Positions 1-22,063 of a stretch of DNA of 22,063 nt are shown piece after piece. The first letter of the stretch is position 1. Every line of letters begins with the position of its first letter. Under the pieces are notes generated by a model that searched no databases, was not told the origin of the DNA, and was given only the letters and a program-made list of their open reading frames with translations. Source of the DNA: a virus (taxonomy: Duplodnaviria; Heunggongvirae; Uroviricota; Caudoviricetes); the IMG/VR virus record IMGVR_UViG_2778261447_000003; one strand, given 5' to 3'. The translations under genes were made by a program, and so were the position numbers.

Positions 1-120
1 AGCTGATAGAAACAGAAGCCACTGGAGCACCTCAAAAACACCATCATACACTAAATCAGTAAGTTGGCAGCATCACCATGGGCTTCATATAAATATGCTC
101 GATATGCTATTAATAATATC

Positions 121-157
121 CACATAAATAAAACAACGGGCGTGTTATACGCCCGTT
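121..157 (-). terminator. Intrinsic (rho-independent) terminator downstream of the icd 3' fragment
   Basis: Perfect 9-bp stem aacgggcgt (135-143) / acgcccgtt (149-157) with 5-nt loop; on the minus strand the hairpin is followed by a T-rich tract (GTTTTATTTATG). Lies directly 3' of the icd stop codon at 181-183. Confidence 0.7.
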
Positions 158-180
158 TCAATATTTAACACATGGAGAGA

Positions 181-345
181 TTACATGTTTTCGATGATCG
201 CTTCACCAAACTCTGAACATTTCAGCAGCTTAGCGCCTTCCATCAGACGTTCGAAGTCATAAGTTACGGTCTTGGCATTGATTGCGCCTTCCATACCTTT
301 AACAATCAGGTCAGCCGCTTCAGTCCAACCCATATGGCGCAGCAT
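181..345 (-). pseudogene. icd: Isocitrate dehydrogenase 3' fragment (54 codons plus stop), the copy displaced by prophage integration
   Basis: Minus-strand translation gives [54 protein letters not shown], which I recognise as the Icd C-terminus. An in-frame TAA lies immediately upstream (349-351), so only the 3' end is present. Sits next to mcrA, as the icdC fragment does at the e14 end in K-12 (recalled, not searched). Confidence 0.85.
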
Positions 346-350
346 TAGTT
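340..350. other. Approximate prophage/host junction (att core) inside icd
   Basis: Icd-coding homology stops abruptly at about 345-351 and is replaced by AT-rich non-coding sequence. The exact core cannot be defined without the other prophage end. Confidence 0.5.
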
Positions 351-577
351 AGATGACTAAATCGTAACTATTTGACATAGCAACATAATTTTACTAATTT
401 GCATATAACTCATTAGCCCTTAGCATTTCTATAACTCATTGATTATAAACATGTGTTTTTGAGTTTTGATAACCATTTTTAGCATAAAAATAGCAGTTAA
501 CATTTGCAGAAGTTAAGATCAGAAAAATTTTTACCCTGTAGGGTATTACGTCTTAAATGTGACTTTAATAAATAATT

Positions 578-1411
578 TTATTTCTGTAATCGGTTTATAT
601 TAACGTAAAGCATCTCGATTAGTTCTTTTGCATTTTTACTATAGTGCAATTCTCTATGGCAATTCGGACAAAGGGCAACACAGTTATCTGTTGTATCAGC
701 ACCACCTGAAGACAGGGGAATTACATGATGCACTTCCAAATATGGGTTTCCATCATTTAAATAAAACGGAGCATTTTTACCACAGTTTTCACATATACCT
801 TTACTTTGCTGTAAAATCCAAGCTTTTACCATCGGGTCTCGGACATAAACTTTTTGTAGTCTTTCTACCTCAACTGGTTTCCTGGAGCCCTCGGGTTGAC
901 TCAACGTTTTCTTAATTAATTTACTAACCCTCATATTCAGAAGCGATTCATCATCTGTAGGCTGTGAAAGCTCTGATAGTTCTCCACGTATTATAGACGC
1001 CCAAAAACTGTCACTATAAATACCTGGAACATTTATCAATATTCGTTTCGTTCTATTGCCGGAAGGAATTTCCTTTCTCCCCGTACGACTAAAATAAGCC
1101 TGATAACCACACATCTTCAAGCGTATATCGCGGGGGCTATTACCAATCAAAGAAAAATATTCACCAGGATGGATTTTTCTTTCATCCAAAGAATGCATAT
1201 GTTTTCTGACTGATGATGACGCCAGATATACTACGACTTGGGATACACCAGAATCAACCAACCGTTCAATGATATAATCAAGAGCGATATTGTAATCTTT
1301 GTTTCTGTCACCCGGCCCCCACGACTCAAGGATTAGACCATAAACACCATCCTCTTCACCTATCGAACACTCAGCTTTCAGTTCAATTCCATTGTTATCA
1401 AAAACATGCAT
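578..1411 (-). CDS. mcrA: McrA, 5-methylcytosine-specific HNH restriction endonuclease (277 aa)
   Basis: Complete ORF with ATG start. C-terminal HNH motif CENCGKNAPF...EVHHVIPLSSGGADTTDNCVALCPNCHRELH. Length and position next to pin at the prophage end match e14 mcrA (recalled). The gene is AT-rich relative to the structural module. Confidence 0.88.
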   Translation of the reverse strand: MHVFDNNGIELKAECSIGEEDGVYGLILESWGPGDRNKDYNIALDYIIERLVDSGVSQVVVYLASSSVRKHMHSLDERKIHPGEYFSLIGNSPRDIRLKMCGYQAYFSRTGRKEIPSGNRTKRILINVPGIYSDSFWASIIRGELSELSQPTDDESLLNMRVSKLIKKTLSQPEGSRKPVEVERLQKVYVRDPMVKAWILQQSKGICENCGKNAPFYLNDGNPYLEVHHVIPLSSGGADTTDNCVALCPNCHRELHYSKNAKELIEMLYVNINRLQK

Positions 1412-1517
1412 AATATTAATCTTTAATCAATTTTTCACGACAATACTACTTTTATTGATAAAATTGCAACAAGTTGCTGTTGTTTTACTTTCTTTTGTAC
1501 ACAAAGTGTCTTTAACT

Positions 1518-2072
1518 TTATTTATCCCCTGCAGGAAACCTCTTATACAAAGTTGACACACCAACATCATAGATAATCGCCACCTTCTGGCGAGGAACTC
1601 CTGATGCAATTAATCGTCCGGCCTGTTCCCATTGTTCTGGTGTAAGTTTGGGACGACGTCCACCAATTCGTCCCTGTGCGCGAGCAGCTTCCAGTCCAGC
1701 TTTTGTTCTTTCAACAATCAGTTCACGCTCCATTTCAGCCAGGGCACCCATCACATGAAAGAAAAAGCGCCCCATTGGGGTACTGGTATCAATTGAATCC
1801 GTCAGACTACGAAAGTTGATGCCTCGTTCGCGCAACTCCTCCACCAGCACGACAAGATGCCGCATACTGCGCCCCAGTCGGTCCAGTTTCCAGACCACCA
1901 GCGTATCACCTGCCGATAATGTCCTGAGCAGTTTTTTCAGTCCCGGCCTTTCGGACTTTGTACCGCTTATCTTGTCTTCAAAAATCAGCTCGCATCCTGC
2001 ACAGTTCAGCGCATTACGTTGTAGATCTGTGTTCTGGTCATTTGTTGACACACGTACATAGCCAATAAGCAT
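1518..2072 (-). CDS. pin: Pin/Gin/Hin-family serine DNA invertase (184 aa)
   Basis: N-terminus MLIGYVRVSTNDQ contains the catalytic serine motif of small serine recombinases; a helix-turn-helix lies at the C-terminus. I place the start at the ATG at 2070-2072, which has an AGGGAG Shine-Dalgarno about 8 nt upstream, not at the track start 2108. Adjacent to inverted crossover sites. Confidence 0.9.
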   Translation of the reverse strand: MLIGYVRVSTNDQNTDLQRNALNCAGCELIFEDKISGTKSERPGLKKLLRTLSAGDTLVVWKLDRLGRSMRHLVVLVEELRERGINFRSLTDSIDTSTPMGRFFFHVMGALAEMERELIVERTKAGLEAARAQGRIGGRRPKLTPEQWEQAGRLIASGVPRQKVAIIYDVGVSTLYKRFPAGDK

Positions 2073-2126
2073 GGTAGATCTCCCTGACAAAAGCAGGAAT
2101 GATGCCATTTGCTCGTTATTTCTGCA

Positions 2127-2152
2127 TTTTCATAAACGTTGGTTTGGGAGAA
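2127..2152. repeat. Invertase crossover site, left (hix/gix/pix-like 26-bp site)
   Basis: ttttcataaacg-tt-ggtttgggagaa. The inner 14 bp (2139-2152) are a perfect inverted repeat of 4012-4025. Resembles the hix/gix 12-2-12 architecture (AAAACC..GGTTT). Confidence 0.75.
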
Positions 2153-2650
2153 GGCTCTGCATTACCTGTTGGGGTTCCTGTTCCGTGGCCTTCAGCCACT
2201 CCGCCAACAGGCTGGCTGAAATGCAACGGAGCAGCTTTTTCTGCTGAAGAATACCCGGAGCTGGCAAAGGCTTACCCGACAAATAAATTGCCTGATTTAC
2301 GTGGTGAGTTTATTCGTGGCTGGGATGACGGACGTGGTATGGATACGGGGAGGGCAATATTATCCGCTCAGGGCGATGCCATACGTAATATCTATGGTGA
2401 GTTCAAGACTGTAAACACCGAAAATTATTCAATATGGGAATCAGTAGGCTCGTTTAAGGGGGCAGTAGTGCCTTTGAACCCCTCAACGAACAATAGTTAT
2501 TTCTCCTTAATCAGAAGTATGGTGACAGAAAGAACAGATGGCGCTGTTTACCCAAAAGTGATTGGCCTTGATGCTTCAAGAATTGTTCCAACTGCAAACG
2601 AAAACCGTCCTCGTAACATTGCCTTTAATTATATCGTGAGGGCTGCCTGA
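2141..2650 (+). CDS. Silent alternative tail-fibre C-terminal cassette (variable receptor-binding part), expressed only after inversion
   Basis: Frame is continuous from the crossover site. Encodes LPVGVPVPWPSATPPTGWLKCNGAAFSAEEYPELAKAYP, the phage tail-collar type motif of Mu/P2-type fibre C-termini. The ATG at 2099 in the ORF track lies outside the segment and is probably not a real start. Confidence 0.65.
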   Translation, partial: GLGEGSALPVGVPVPWPSATPPTGWLKCNGAAFSAEEYPELAKAYPTNKLPDLRGEFIRGWDDGRGMDTGRAILSAQGDAIRNIYGEFKTVNTENYSIWESVGSFKGAVVPLNPSTNNSYFSLIRSMVTERTDGAVYPKVIGLDASRIVPTANENRPRNIAFNYIVRAA

Positions 2651-3252
2651 TGAATAAAGCCGTATTAAATAACGAACTCATTGCCATAAAAGCGGGAGTC
2701 ATTACCATTTATAATTATGATGGTGAAACGCGGGAATATATTTCCACATCAACTGAATATCTTGCGGTTGGCGTCGGTATCCCGGCATGTTCTTGTTTAG
2801 ATGCACCAGTTACACATAAAGCTGGTTATGCAATCTGCCGTTCTGCAGATTTTAACTCATGGGAATATGTGCCAGACCATCGCGGTGAAATCATCTATAG
2901 CACCGAAACAGGAGAATCGAAAGAAATCACAGCTCCGGGTGATTATCCTGAAAATACAACCACTATCGCCCCGTTAACGCCATACGATAAATGGGATGGT
3001 GAGAAATGGGTGACGGATACCGAGGCACAGCATAGCGCCGCAGTAGAAGCGGCAGAAGCACAGCGCCAGTCGCTGATTGATGCTGCAATGGCTTCCATCA
3101 GTCTGATTCAGCTGAAATTACAGGCCGGGCGGAAGCTGACGCAGCCAGAAAACACCCGACTTAACGCTGTGCTGGATTATATTGACGCGGTGACGGCAAC
3201 AGATACCAGCACAGCGCCGGACGTCATCTGGCCTGAACTGCCGGAGGCGTAG
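2650..3252 (+). CDS. Tail fibre assembly protein (Tfa/gpU-like, 200 aa), alternative orientation set
   Basis: Start ATG overlaps the stop of the upstream cassette (TGATG). C-terminal motif DYIDAVTATDTSTAPDVIWPELP is typical of Tfa chaperones. Possibly the tfaE counterpart. Confidence 0.8.
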   Translation: MNKAVLNNELIAIKAGVITIYNYDGETREYISTSTEYLAVGVGIPACSCLDAPVTHKAGYAICRSADFNSWEYVPDHRGEIIYSTETGESKEITAPGDYPENTTTIAPLTPYDKWDGEKWVTDTEAQHSAAVEAAEAQRQSLIDAAMASISLIQLKLQAGRKLTQPENTRLNAVLDYIDAVTATDTSTAPDVIWPELPEA

Positions 3253-20674: not shown

Positions 20675-21165
20675 GATTCGATGATTTTCAGAAACGGGTT
20701 AGTGGCTTTCTTCTTCCCCGCCAGGCCAATCAGACGCTGGCGGCTGCTGGGGTCGAGTCCGAGCATTGCCCCCGTACTGCTCATCTCGGACTCCTGTTCT
20801 TTTTTGGCGGTCAGCTCCGGATTTTTGACCATACCGCCCATTGCACCGGTGATGGTATTGCCCTGTCTGGCAATATTTTTCACGGCACGTCGCCAGAACT
20901 CGTAGGCCACGCACCACCGCTCAAGCACTGCGAGGTCAGTCACGCACAGCAGGCCCTGACCGCAGAGTTCTTTGGTTGTCAGTTGCCACATGATCGTAGC
21001 GAGAGGGAGATCTTCTTCAGCGAACCACTCCGGTGGCTCAACACCTTTGATGGGCGTAAAAACAGGTTCATCTTTATTCAGGGCTCGCTTGCCGGGGTTT
21101 CCGGCCAGCGCCTTGCGCGCCGTTGGCTTGGGGCGACGCCCGGAACGCCCCGCCGTTCCAGCCAT
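20671..21165 (-). CDS. Terminase small subunit, P27 family (about 164 aa)
   Basis: Basic N-terminus; directly upstream of and overlapping the large terminase. The track start at 21174 is a GTG; the ATG at 21163-21165 has an AGGAG Shine-Dalgarno. Confidence 0.8.
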
Positions 21166-21290
21166 ATGCGGCACTCCTGGTTAAATTTCATTTTTCGCGG
21201 GTATAAAAAAACGATGGGGCGGGCAGTCCGGAAGACGTCAGGTCACAGGGATTTGCCCCCCCCCTCCCCTCTGGCAGTGGGAACTGGTTC

Positions 21291-21641
21291 TTACTTCAGC
21301 CGTTCACGGGCCGTCTTCGCCTTATGACACGGCCAGCACAAACTCTGCAGATTACTGTCGACATCAGTGCCGCCATGCGATTTAGGGTTGATGTGGTCAA
21401 CGGTCTTCGCCTCACGCACCACACCAGCACGCAGACATAACTGACACAGGCCTTTGTCACGCTTGAGCACACGTTCACGGATAACATCCCATTTCGAACC
21501 ATAACCGCGCTGGTGTCGGGATTGTCCTGACTTGTATTGCTTCCAGCCTTCGCTTTTGTGGCTTTCGCAGTAGCCTGACGAGTCAGTGGTGGTATGGGGG
21601 CAGCCGCGAACGCGGCAGGCTTTTGGGGTTCGTGGTGGCAT
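21291..21641 (-). CDS. Phage HNH endonuclease of the packaging module (about 116 aa)
   Basis: HNH/zinc motif CQLCLRAGVVREAKTVDHINPKSHGGTDVDSNLQSLCWPCHKAK. ATG at 21639-21641 with AGAGGA Shine-Dalgarno; the track ORF extends 21 codons further upstream. HNH next to terminase is typical of HK97-like packaging. Confidence 0.8.
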   Translation of the reverse strand: MPPRTPKACRVRGCPHTTTDSSGYCESHKSEGWKQYKSGQSRHQRGYGSKWDVIRERVLKRDKGLCQLCLRAGVVREAKTVDHINPKSHGGTDVDSNLQSLCWPCHKAKTARERLK

Positions 21642-21791
21642 TGCATAATCCTCTTGGATGGTTCGCGTGCGATACGTGGCATCCTTCTCAGAATCGAATC
21701 GCACTCCACTCCGGTTTTGCCATAAACGATCTTTTATGCTTCGCTGGATGTAGTTGATAGTTGTTGAAACTCAATGAACAGGAGTTCACAA

Positions 21792-22063
21792 ATGAATAGT
21801 TATGAATGGGAATGGCTTTTAAACAAAGATGACACCCTATGCTTTTTCCCCGTAGGCCATTCTGTAGAAGGTAATTACAAAATTCACTTTGAGTTGAGCG
21901 GTAGTTGTAACCTTAGAGTCTCAGATGCTGAATGGCATGGTAAACCTGTACTGCTGTTCGAATACTTCGATGAAGATGATGACCGCTGGATTTGCCCCTA
22001 TATTTCCAGACATCTGTTATCACTTAACCCATTACAAGCCCGCTGCCGCAGATATTCCCGTGG
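21792..22063 (+). CDS. Hypothetical protein, 5' part only (at least 90 codons, runs off the window)
   Basis: ATG at 21792 with AGGAG Shine-Dalgarno 8 nt upstream; open to the window end (MNSYEWEWLLNKDDTLCFFPVGHSVEGNYKIHFELSGSCNLRVSDAEWHGKPVLLFEYFDEDDDRWICPYISRHLL...). Divergent from the packaging operon and AT-rich. Not in the track because no stop lies in the window. Confidence 0.5.
   Translation, partial: MNSYEWEWLLNKDDTLCFFPVGHSVEGNYKIHFELSGSCNLRVSDAEWHGKPVLLFEYFDEDDDRWICPYISRHLLSLNPLQARCRRYSR

What the first reader, a model, noticed from the sequence alone, without database searches (positions are those of the whole stretch)
21705..22063. Divergent AT-rich ORF of unknown function beyond the packaging module
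A plus-strand ORF with a good ribosome binding site starts at 21792, opposite to every other phage gene in the window, and is visibly more AT-rich than the adjacent HNH and terminase genes. Its N-terminal 90 residues match nothing I recognise. Opposite-strand, compositionally distinct genes in prophages are frequently morons (defence, anti-defence, toxin or fitness factors). It is truncated by the window edge, so its size and partners are unknown. This is the best candidate in the window for something uncharacterised.
Basis: seen in the sequence. Interest (0 to 1): 0.55.

Follow-up and report, generated by a model that had tools for sequence, protein, structure and literature searches.

The report
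IS2-broken prophage accessory gene of unknown function
The ORF is real, but in this window it is the dead front end of a small, conserved prophage accessory gene, cut after codon 65 by an IS2 element; the intact gene encodes an uncharacterised acidic protein whose fold matches no solved structure.

Summary
The ORF at 21792 (+) with its AGGAG site and low G+C (40% against 55%) is there. It is not an open-ended unknown gene. Bases 21987-22063 are the right end of IS2, and the ORF stops 3 codons past the window edge (93 aa, identical to P0012). Only codons 1-65 are native; the last 25 of the "90 residues" are read-through of the IS2 terminal repeat.

The intact gene ("A", 111 aa, WP_001089762.1, phrog_14397, function unknown) is uninterrupted in all 79 complete E. 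coli genomes that carry it (79 of 5,426). It has about 25 full-length relatives, all in Enterobacterales, and is under purifying selection.

In every intact prophage examined it lies on the strand opposite the late genes, between the lysis cassette and the packaging genes. In E. coli e14-like prophages an unrelated 189-aa gene ("B") follows it.

A is cytoplasmic and very acidic (net charge -12). A confident AlphaFold model (pLDDT 88.8) matches nothing in the PDB or BFVD.

The layout copies that of phi80 Tai, a lysogen-expressed defence gene embedded antisense in the late operon, but A and B are not Tai homologues.

Best guess, by inference only: a lysogen-expressed protein-binding defence or counter-defence factor, non-functional here. 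Interest is modest.

The parts
21291..21641 (-). HNH endonuclease gene, the last gene of the phage's linear map. It is the left neighbour of the accessory slot (context only).
   Evidence: Annotated as HNH endonuclease in 79 E. coli genomes and in SfI/SfV/SfIV/ST64B phages. Pfam HNH in L002.
21688..21723 (-). Relic of the 5' end of a foreign small-terminase gene (MAKPEWSAIRF*), carried in with the cassette.
   Evidence: The translation matches terS N-termini MAKPDWEAIES.. and MAKPDWG.., which sit about 68 nt divergently upstream of gene A in other prophages.
21780..21784 (+). Shine-Dalgarno sequence AGGAG of gene A.
   Evidence: Read from the sequence. GGAG/GAGG is conserved at this position in 8 divergent loci.
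21792..21986 (+). Native 5' fragment (codons 1-65 of 111) of accessory gene A (WP_001089762.1 family, phrog_14397).
   Evidence: Identical to residues 1-65 of the intact 111-aa protein of L001. Matches to intact genomes stop at 21986.
21982..21986 (.). ACCGC, the 5-bp target site duplicated by the IS2 insertion (left copy).
   Evidence: Left junction GACCGC|TGGATTT in the window. Right junction CCAGTCTA|ACCGC|CCTGCAA in L053 and in protein P0064.
21987..22063 (-). Right end of IS2: the terminal inverted repeat IRR plus the last 21 codons and stop of InsD/OrfB at 21998-22063 on the minus strand. The rest of the element lies beyond the window edge.
   Evidence: 100% identity to annotated IS2 ends (H38-H40). 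The reverse-complement translation is PREYLRQRACNGLSDNRCLEI*. The sequence continues in L002.

Best explanation
SHOWN. The ORF is the 5' 65 codons of a 111-codon prophage accessory gene (gene A; WP_001089762.1; phrog_14397). An IS2 element inserted after codon 65 with a 5-bp ACCGC duplication. The resulting 93-aa chimera (65 native residues plus 28 read from the IS2 terminal repeat) lacks strand beta5 and both C-terminal helices of the predicted fold, so it is almost certainly non-functional.

The prophage is an SfV/SfI-type phage integrated at the e14 (icd) site. The intact gene is a mobile single-gene module. It sits antisense inside the Q-dependent late operon, between the lysis cassette and the packaging genes, in many unrelated temperate phages of Enterobacterales.

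It reached the e14-like lineage by recombination and brought along a stub of its former small-terminase neighbour. In that lineage it is followed by a second, independently mobile accessory gene, B (189 aa).

INFERRED. The intact protein is a small, very acidic, cytoplasmic alpha/beta protein with no enzyme-like signature. I propose that it acts by stoichiometric binding to a basic protein surface. I also propose that it is made in the lysogen from its own promoter and is damped by convergent late transcription during lytic growth, as shown for phi80 TaiEcA in the same genomic position. Its most likely role is protecting the lysogen against other phages (superinfection defence).

Confidence is about 0.9 for the identity and pseudogene part and about 0.3 for the functional part. 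The figure below is a blend of the two.
For: IS2 junction and 93-aa product. The opposite junction with the ACCGC duplication, followed by A codons 66-111, intact B and the lysis genes.

Intact gene and cassette. A is in 79 of 5,426 complete E. coli genomes, uninterrupted in all of them (one copy carries a 1-base insertion).

A real protein family: phrog_14397 at E=5.6e-79; 37 relatives in the 5.8-billion-protein search and 14 among 1.84 billion representatives, all named sources Enterobacterales; purifying selection.

Constant position and orientation next to different terminase types in Escherichia, Enterobacter, Serratia, Citrobacter and uncultured viral contigs, plus degraded prophage remnants in Pectobacterium and Pantoea. 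No conserved partner gene. B occurs alone in the same slot in Yersinia, Klebsiella and Enterobacter. terS stub.

Acidic protein (pI 4.56, net charge -12). Confident model (pLDDT 88.8, pTM 0.80) with invariant D45 and D62 and a conserved EYxDEDDD loop.

Precedent for the architecture and its regulation: He et al. 2024, PMC11364771, and the phi80 map.
Against: There is no experimental or homology-based evidence for any function. PADLOC, Pfam and NCBIfam are all negative.

No sigma-70-like promoter was found upstream of A with the consensus scan, so lysogenic expression is assumed, not shown.

A and B are absent from all 50,697 sequenced phage records, so there is no phage in hand in which to test them.

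Acidity fits an anti-defence inhibitor or a nuclease immunity protein equally well.

That the window's IS2 is a simple insertion is inferred from matching junctions in other assemblies, not from this genome.
Confidence: 0.55

Rival explanations
1. Intact A is an anti-defence protein. It would be an acidic inhibitor, in the manner of Ocr, ArdA or Ugi, that blocks a host nuclease or other DNA-binding immune protein. It would benefit the phage on entry or induction rather than the lysogen.
For: Net charge -12, pI 4.56 and 111 aa. Invariant acidic loop DEDDD. No catalytic signature. In SfI/SfV-type cos phages the gene lies within about 800 bp of the right cos end (one search places cos near window 21216). 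By analogy with lambda, which injects its right end first (my own knowledge, not tested here), it would then enter the cell early.
Confidence: 0.2
2. A is the immunity, antitoxin or regulatory partner of the downstream gene B. B would be a candidate PD-(D/E)xK-type nuclease, and the pair would form a two-gene toxin-immunity or defence module.
For: In all of the roughly 30 E. coli e14-like loci examined, A is immediately followed by B on the same strand. The order small acidic protein then larger protein resembles nuclease-immunity pairs. B has invariant E32, D64, E85-x-K87 and Q123 in an arrangement compatible with a PD-(D/E)xK core.
Against: A occurs without B in at least 12 other loci. B occurs without A in Yersinia, Klebsiella and Enterobacter prophages. 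The 100-bp A-B spacer holds a promoter-like site for B. The nuclease assignment for B rests on a motif only: there is no Pfam, PADLOC or PDB sequence match.
Confidence: 0.1
3. A is a degenerate, catalytically dead remnant of a transglutaminase-like (vasohibin/CPR-C4-type) cysteine protease domain.
For: A profile of the family against PDB sequences gives one marginal hit, CPR-C4 (7ob6/7pjo), at E=0.013. It aligns A residues 46-109 with CPR-C4 residues 84-146. This includes DEDDDR against DEDEDH (the catalytic His93) and YHEPIYKAVYEWAVKFFY against YRDPIYKSVRELAMSYFH (PMC9108980).
Confidence: 0.05
4. The 93-aa chimera encoded in this window (65 native residues plus an IS2-derived tail) is itself a functional product.
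For: It keeps the native ribosome binding site and start codon, the two N-terminal helices and four of the five strands. The identical allele is seen in at least one other assembly.
Against: It loses strand beta5, both C-terminal helices and most of the near-invariant C-terminal residues (H94, Y98, W104, A105). None of the complete E. coli genomes that carry A has an IS-interrupted copy.
Confidence: 0.03

Closest known systems
phi80 TaiEcA (orf63), tail-assembly-inhibition defence (He et al. 2024, PMC11364771)
   Same: A single accessory gene placed antisense in the Q-dependent late operon, between the lysis genes and the packaging module or cos. It is variable between related phages. In phi80 it is constitutively expressed in the lysogen, reduced when Q drives late transcription, and was found inactivated by transposase insertions.
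   Different: No sequence relationship: hhalign probability is below 1% for both A and B against TaiEcA. TaiEcA is 204 aa. A is 111 aa and very acidic. No Ati-like counter-defence gene is recognisable next to A. Function is untested.
Lambdoid morons in the lysis-to-cos slot (lambda bor is the example I have in mind, from my own knowledge)
   Same: Opposite-strand, low-G+C, dispensable gene between Rz/Rz1 and the packaging genes, present in only some relatives.
   Different: To my knowledge Bor is a secreted lipoprotein. By inspection A shows no hydrophobic N-terminal segment, and no promoter or terminator consensus was detected around it.
phrog_14397 / WP_001089762.1 family of hypothetical proteins
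   Same: The intact gene is a full-length member (E=5.6e-79). The window encodes its first 65 residues exactly.
   Different: The window copy is interrupted by IS2. The family has no assigned function, no Pfam model and no match to a solved structure.
IS2 (IS3 family) insertion
   Same: Terminal repeat 100% identical, InsD C-terminus encoded on the minus strand, 5-bp target duplication ACCGC.
   Different: Nothing unusual. Only 77 bp of the element lie inside the window.

Membership tests
phrog_14397 (gene A family) | Full-length match to the family profile. | tested here: met
   Intact homologue: E=5.6e-79, positions 1-111 of 111. Window residues 1-65 are identical to it.
IS2 insertion | IS2 terminal inverted repeat, transposase (InsD) coding end, and a 5-bp target-site duplication. 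| tested here: met
   100% identity to annotated IS2 ends. InsD C-terminus present on the reverse strand. ACCGC is present at both junctions: the left one in the window, the right one in L053 and P0064. The right junction was not seen in the source genome itself.
Moron (accessory gene added to a phage genome) | Present in some and absent from other closely related phages, with deviant base composition. | tested here: met
   79 genomes carry A, against 593 that carry at least 80% of the window. Sister prophages have other genes in the slot. G+C is 40% against 55%.
Moron (accessory gene added to a phage genome) | Own promoter and terminator flanking the gene. | tested here: inconclusive
   No sigma-70 consensus was found upstream of A. 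Only a weak terminator-like hairpin lies inside the 3' end of A, and a promoter-like site lies ahead of B.
Tai (tail assembly inhibition) defence proteins | Sequence homology to TaiEcA or its homologues. | tested here: not met
   hhalign probability is 0.2-0.3% for the A and B profiles against phi80 orf63. tblastn of A and B against all phage records, including phi80, gave no match.
Tai (tail assembly inhibition) defence proteins | Divergent gene upstream of the packaging module inside the late operon ('noncontiguous operon'). | tested here: met
   Same position and orientation in at least 10 prophage lineages, compared with the phi80 map.
Tai (tail assembly inhibition) defence proteins | Blocks tail assembly of infecting phages. 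| not testable with these tools
   Needs plaque assays and electron microscopy.
Known anti-phage defence systems (PADLOC-DB v2) | Match to any defence-protein model. | tested here: not met
   No hit for A or B at E up to 1.
Transglutaminase-like cysteine proteases (CPR-C4 / vasohibin) | Conserved catalytic Cys and His, and the shared alpha/beta core. | tested here: not met
Two-gene toxin-immunity module (A with B) | Obligate co-occurrence of the two genes. | tested here: not met
   A occurs alone in L003, L006, L008, L036-L041 and L056-L060. B occurs alone in L045-L051.
PD-(D/E)xK nucleases (gene B, outside the window) | The E...D...ExK catalytic motif on the characteristic fold. | tested here: inconclusive
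   Invariant D64 and E85-x-K87 fit the motif.

The most novel reading that the evidence does not exclude
The intact gene A founds a new family of single-protein phage-phage conflict factors, either defence or counter-defence. It has a fold not seen in the PDB or BFVD. It lives in the lysis-packaging slot of temperate Enterobacterales phages and is switched off by antisense late transcription. It would act by binding, through its invariant acidic loop, a basic surface on a phage or host protein.
Probability: 0.3. Interest if true: 0.55.

Novelty: new member of a known kind. Interest (0 to 1): 0.3.

Why it matters
For this window it matters little. The copy is a pseudogene created by a routine IS2 insertion.

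For the family, the work gives three usable results:
- A confident structural model with no known counterpart.
- A precise and recurrent genomic address: antisense, between the lysis and packaging genes, in at least seven genera.
- An experimentally validated precedent, phi80 Tai, that genes at this address can be lysogen-expressed anti-phage factors.

That makes the 111-aa protein, and its frequent E. coli neighbour B, cheap and well-defined candidates for a defence or anti-defence screen.

Tried and rejected
- Source genome: the exact left junction was not found in one-genome-per-species contigs, in complete E. coli genomes or in IMG/VR.
- DNA and protein searches of 50,697 phage records for A and B: no match.
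- Pfam, NCBIfam and PADLOC for A and B, singly and for all family members: only noise.
- First AlphaFold run with 10 close sequences: unusable, pLDDT 53.7. It was rescued by adding divergent members.
- The marginal CPR-C4 sequence hit was followed into the paper and rejected as a family assignment.
- Tai homology rejected by hhalign.
- Search for a conserved partner gene next to A across loci: none.
- The idea that A is recurrently inactivated, as phi80 tai was in the laboratory. Three independent IS insertions exist in draft assemblies: P0012, P0065 (the IS2 left end after codon 44) and P0046 (after codon 34; its tail looks IS3-family-like to me from memory). But no complete genome carrying A has an IS-interrupted copy. 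I therefore see no case for selection against the gene.
- Rfam scan of 21100-22063: nothing credible.
- Literature search by accession numbers and PHROG ids: nothing.

Full report
OBSERVATION

The sequence shows an ATG at 21792 preceded by AGGAG at 21780-21784. It opens a + strand ORF divergent from the HNH endonuclease gene at 21291-21641. The translation to the window edge is 90 codons.

G+C of the native part is 40%. HNH, terS and terL have 54-58%, and the late region as a whole has 55%. So the ORF, its ribosome binding site and its AT-richness are real.

One detail is wrong. It is not the only + strand phage gene, because the Pin-invertible tail-fibre genes at 2099-3252 are also on the + strand.

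WHAT THE 3' END REALLY IS

BLAST against phage records showed that the last 77-78 bases of the window are 100% identical to the end of IS2 (H38-H40). In 79 complete E. coli genomes the match to the window stops exactly at 21986.

The reverse complement of 21998-22063 encodes PREYLRQRACNGLSDNRCLEI*, the C-terminus of IS2 InsD.

The protein database holds the exact chimeric product. P0012 is 93 aa and ends ...RYSRGER*, on a 2-kb E. coli contig that breaks inside IS2. The ORF therefore ends three codons past the window edge.

The other junction was found in an IMG/VR contig, L053. It reads ...CCAGTCTA|ACCGC|CCTGCAATAATCG and is followed by codons 66-111 of the gene, the next gene, and the lysis cassette. 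It also appears in an NCBI E. coli protein, P0064, which reads out of the IS2 left end into ...RPAIIEILE....

Together these define a simple IS2 insertion after codon 65 with a 5-bp duplication, ACCGC (window 21982-21986).

THE INTACT LOCUS

In E. coli A27 (L001) and 20AR0354 (L007) the region reads: terS(P27) <- HNH <- | -> A (111 aa, WP_001089762.1) -> B (189 aa, WP_000613838.1) | <- Rz1/Rz <- endolysin <- holin <- ... Q.

The prophage sits at the e14 site. An icd fragment, mcrA and pinE lie at the start of the window. It has SfV/SfI/ST64B-type morphogenesis genes.

About 593 complete E. coli genomes hold at least 80% of the window, but only 79 hold gene A. In all 79 the gene is uninterrupted, although one copy carries a 1-base insertion and is not annotated. 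Sister prophages carry other genes between Rz and HNH. The slot is therefore a variable accessory slot.

IS A A REAL GENE?

Yes. The evidence is as follows.
- It matches phrog_14397 ("unknown function") end to end at E=5.6e-79, and B matches phrog_12494 at E=1.2e-127.
- The family is small: 14 hits among 1.84 billion cluster representatives and 37 in the 5.8-billion-protein search with a profile.
- Every member that carries an organism name comes from Enterobacterales: Escherichia, Enterobacter, Citrobacter, Pectobacterium, Pantoea, Hafnia and Serratia.
- Across homologues dN is about 0.2 with saturated dS. Close pairs give omega of 0.16-0.24.
- Pfam, NCBIfam and PADLOC give nothing.
- Neither A nor B occurs in any of 50,697 sequenced phage records.
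- No paper cites the accession numbers.

CONTEXT ACROSS LINEAGES

In about 30 IMG/VR and genome loci of the E. coli e14-like type, the order HNH <- -> A -> B <- Rz is constant.

In divergent homologues (43-72% identity) A stands alone, without B. These are L003 Escherichia sp., L008 Enterobacter soli, L036-L041 viral contigs, L058 Serratia and L059/60 Citrobacter. In all of them A is on the strand opposite the late genes, between the lysis cassette and a small terminase.

The small terminase is of several different types: Terminase_2, DUF2280 and an unassigned MAKPDW... type. In Pectobacterium and Pantoea, A survives in degraded prophage remnants.

No downstream neighbour is conserved.

B in turn occurs alone in the same slot in Yersinia, in a Klebsiella P22-like prophage and in Enterobacter prophages. 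A and B are therefore two independent accessory modules that happen to be stacked in E. coli.

An alignment of the upstream regions exposed a conserved block that is the start and ribosome binding site of the divergent terS (MAKPDW...). In the e14-like prophage, where the neighbour is HNH, a stub of this terS persists at window 21688-21723 (MAKPEWSAIRF*). This is a footprint of the recombination that imported the cassette.

THE PROTEIN

A has no hydrophobic N-terminal or membrane-spanning stretch by inspection. It has 20 acidic and 8 basic residues, pI 4.56 and net charge -12.

With 10 close sequences AlphaFold failed (pLDDT 53.7). With 23 sequences that include 37-57% identical members it gave a confident model with pLDDT 88.8 and pTM 0.80. 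The model has two short N-terminal helices, a five-stranded antiparallel meander (22-73) and two C-terminal helices (79-109).

D45 and D62 are invariant. The loop E57-Y-x-D-E-D-D-D64 between strands 4 and 5 is nearly so.

A profile search of PDB sequences gave one marginal hit, the vasohibin-like cysteine protease CPR-C4 (E=0.013), with a striking local motif. I reject it as a family assignment for two reasons. The catalytic Cys and His are not conserved in A. The fold searches do not recover it.

The IS2 insertion removes strand 5 and both helices, so the window's product should not fold.

HOW IT PROBABLY WORKS (INFERENCE)

The closest documented analogue in architecture is phi80 orf63 (TaiEcA). 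It is a divergent gene in the late operon just upstream of the packaging module. It is made constitutively in the lysogen and reduced when Q drives late transcription. It blocks tail assembly of superinfecting phages (PMC11364771).

A and B are not Tai homologues: hhalign probability is below 1%.

By position, orientation, composition and patchy distribution, I consider a lysogen-expressed factor in phage-phage conflict the most likely role for intact A. It would act by binding rather than catalysis, through its conserved acidic loop. I put that at about 0.3.

The rivals are:
- An acidic anti-defence inhibitor (0.2).
- An immunity or regulatory partner of B, weakened by the independent distributions (0.1).
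- A dead transglutaminase-like domain (0.05).

No promoter consensus was detected upstream of A, so expression in the lysogen is an assumption.

IS THE DISRUPTION MEANINGFUL?

Draft assemblies contain at least two further independent IS insertions in A. P0065 has the IS2 left end after codon 44. P0046 has an insertion after codon 34 whose tail looks IS3-family-like to me. Serratia carries frameshifted alleles.

However, no complete E. coli genome that carries A has an IS-interrupted copy. I therefore read the IS2 hit as ordinary prophage decay, not as evidence of counter-selection.

VERDICT

The moron interpretation is right in kind. But the object in the window is an IS2-killed fragment of an uncharacterised, narrowly distributed prophage accessory gene.

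I rate the novelty as a new member of a known kind: a moron in the lysis-packaging slot, with an unassigned fold.

Interest is 0.3. The intact family is a reasonable candidate for a defence or anti-defence screen. Nothing here is surprising to a phage genomicist, and the copy at hand is dead.

Noticed in passing
window 21688-21723 (minus strand): A 12-codon relic, MAKPEWSAIRF*, of the 5' end of a foreign small-terminase gene. It lies between HNH and gene A and marks the recombination junction by which the A(+B) cassette entered the e14-like phage.
   Followed up: yes
L001:9029-9598 (gene B; lies beyond the IS2, outside the window): A 189-aa protein (WP_000613838.1, phrog_12494) with 35% G+C. 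Its invariant residues E32, D64, E85-x-K87 and Q123-Q124-R125 resemble a PD-(D/E)xK nuclease core. It has no profile or PDB match. It occurs alone in the same slot in Yersinia, Klebsiella and Enterobacter prophages.
   Followed up: partly
window 1-3252: The left end of the window is the e14 attachment region. It holds an icd fragment (about 181-348), mcrA (578-1411, -), pinE (1518-2108, -) and the Pin-invertible tail-fibre segment with + strand genes (2099-2650 and 2650-3252). The prophage is therefore a full-length e14-site, SfV/SfI-like phage.
   Followed up: partly
window about 21175-21290 (near 21216): The right end of the linear SfI genome maps to about 21216. The cos site therefore lies between the HNH stop and the terS start, and gene A is within about 800 bp of the genome's right end.
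   Followed up: no
proteins P0065, P0046, P0014, P0066, P0067: Other independently disrupted alleles of gene A. P0065 has the IS2 left end after codon 44. P0046 has an insertion after codon 34 whose tail looks IS3-family-like. P0014 has an unidentified sequence after codon 20. The Serratia marcescens versions are frameshifted and are seen on many contigs.
   Followed up: partly
L010, L011, L012 (IMG/VR contigs): B is cut after 38 codons and is followed by a second copy of terS plus HNH before the lysis genes. This points to a rearrangement or duplication of the packaging-proximal block in some prophages.
   Followed up: no
L001:8935-8985 (A-B spacer): A 9-bp inverted repeat, TGCTGGCAT ... ATGCCAGCA, separated by about 27 nt. 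It overlaps a promoter-like site (TTTACA-17-CACAAT) ahead of B and could be a regulatory site.
   Followed up: no
gene A residues 46-109 against PDB 7ob6 residues 84-146: A marginal (E=0.013) but visually striking local similarity to the CPR-C4 vasohibin-like protease (DEDDDR against DEDEDH; YHEPIYKAVYEWAVKFFY against YRDPIYKSVRELAMSYFH). It is not supported by the fold searches or by conservation of catalytic residues.
   Followed up: partly
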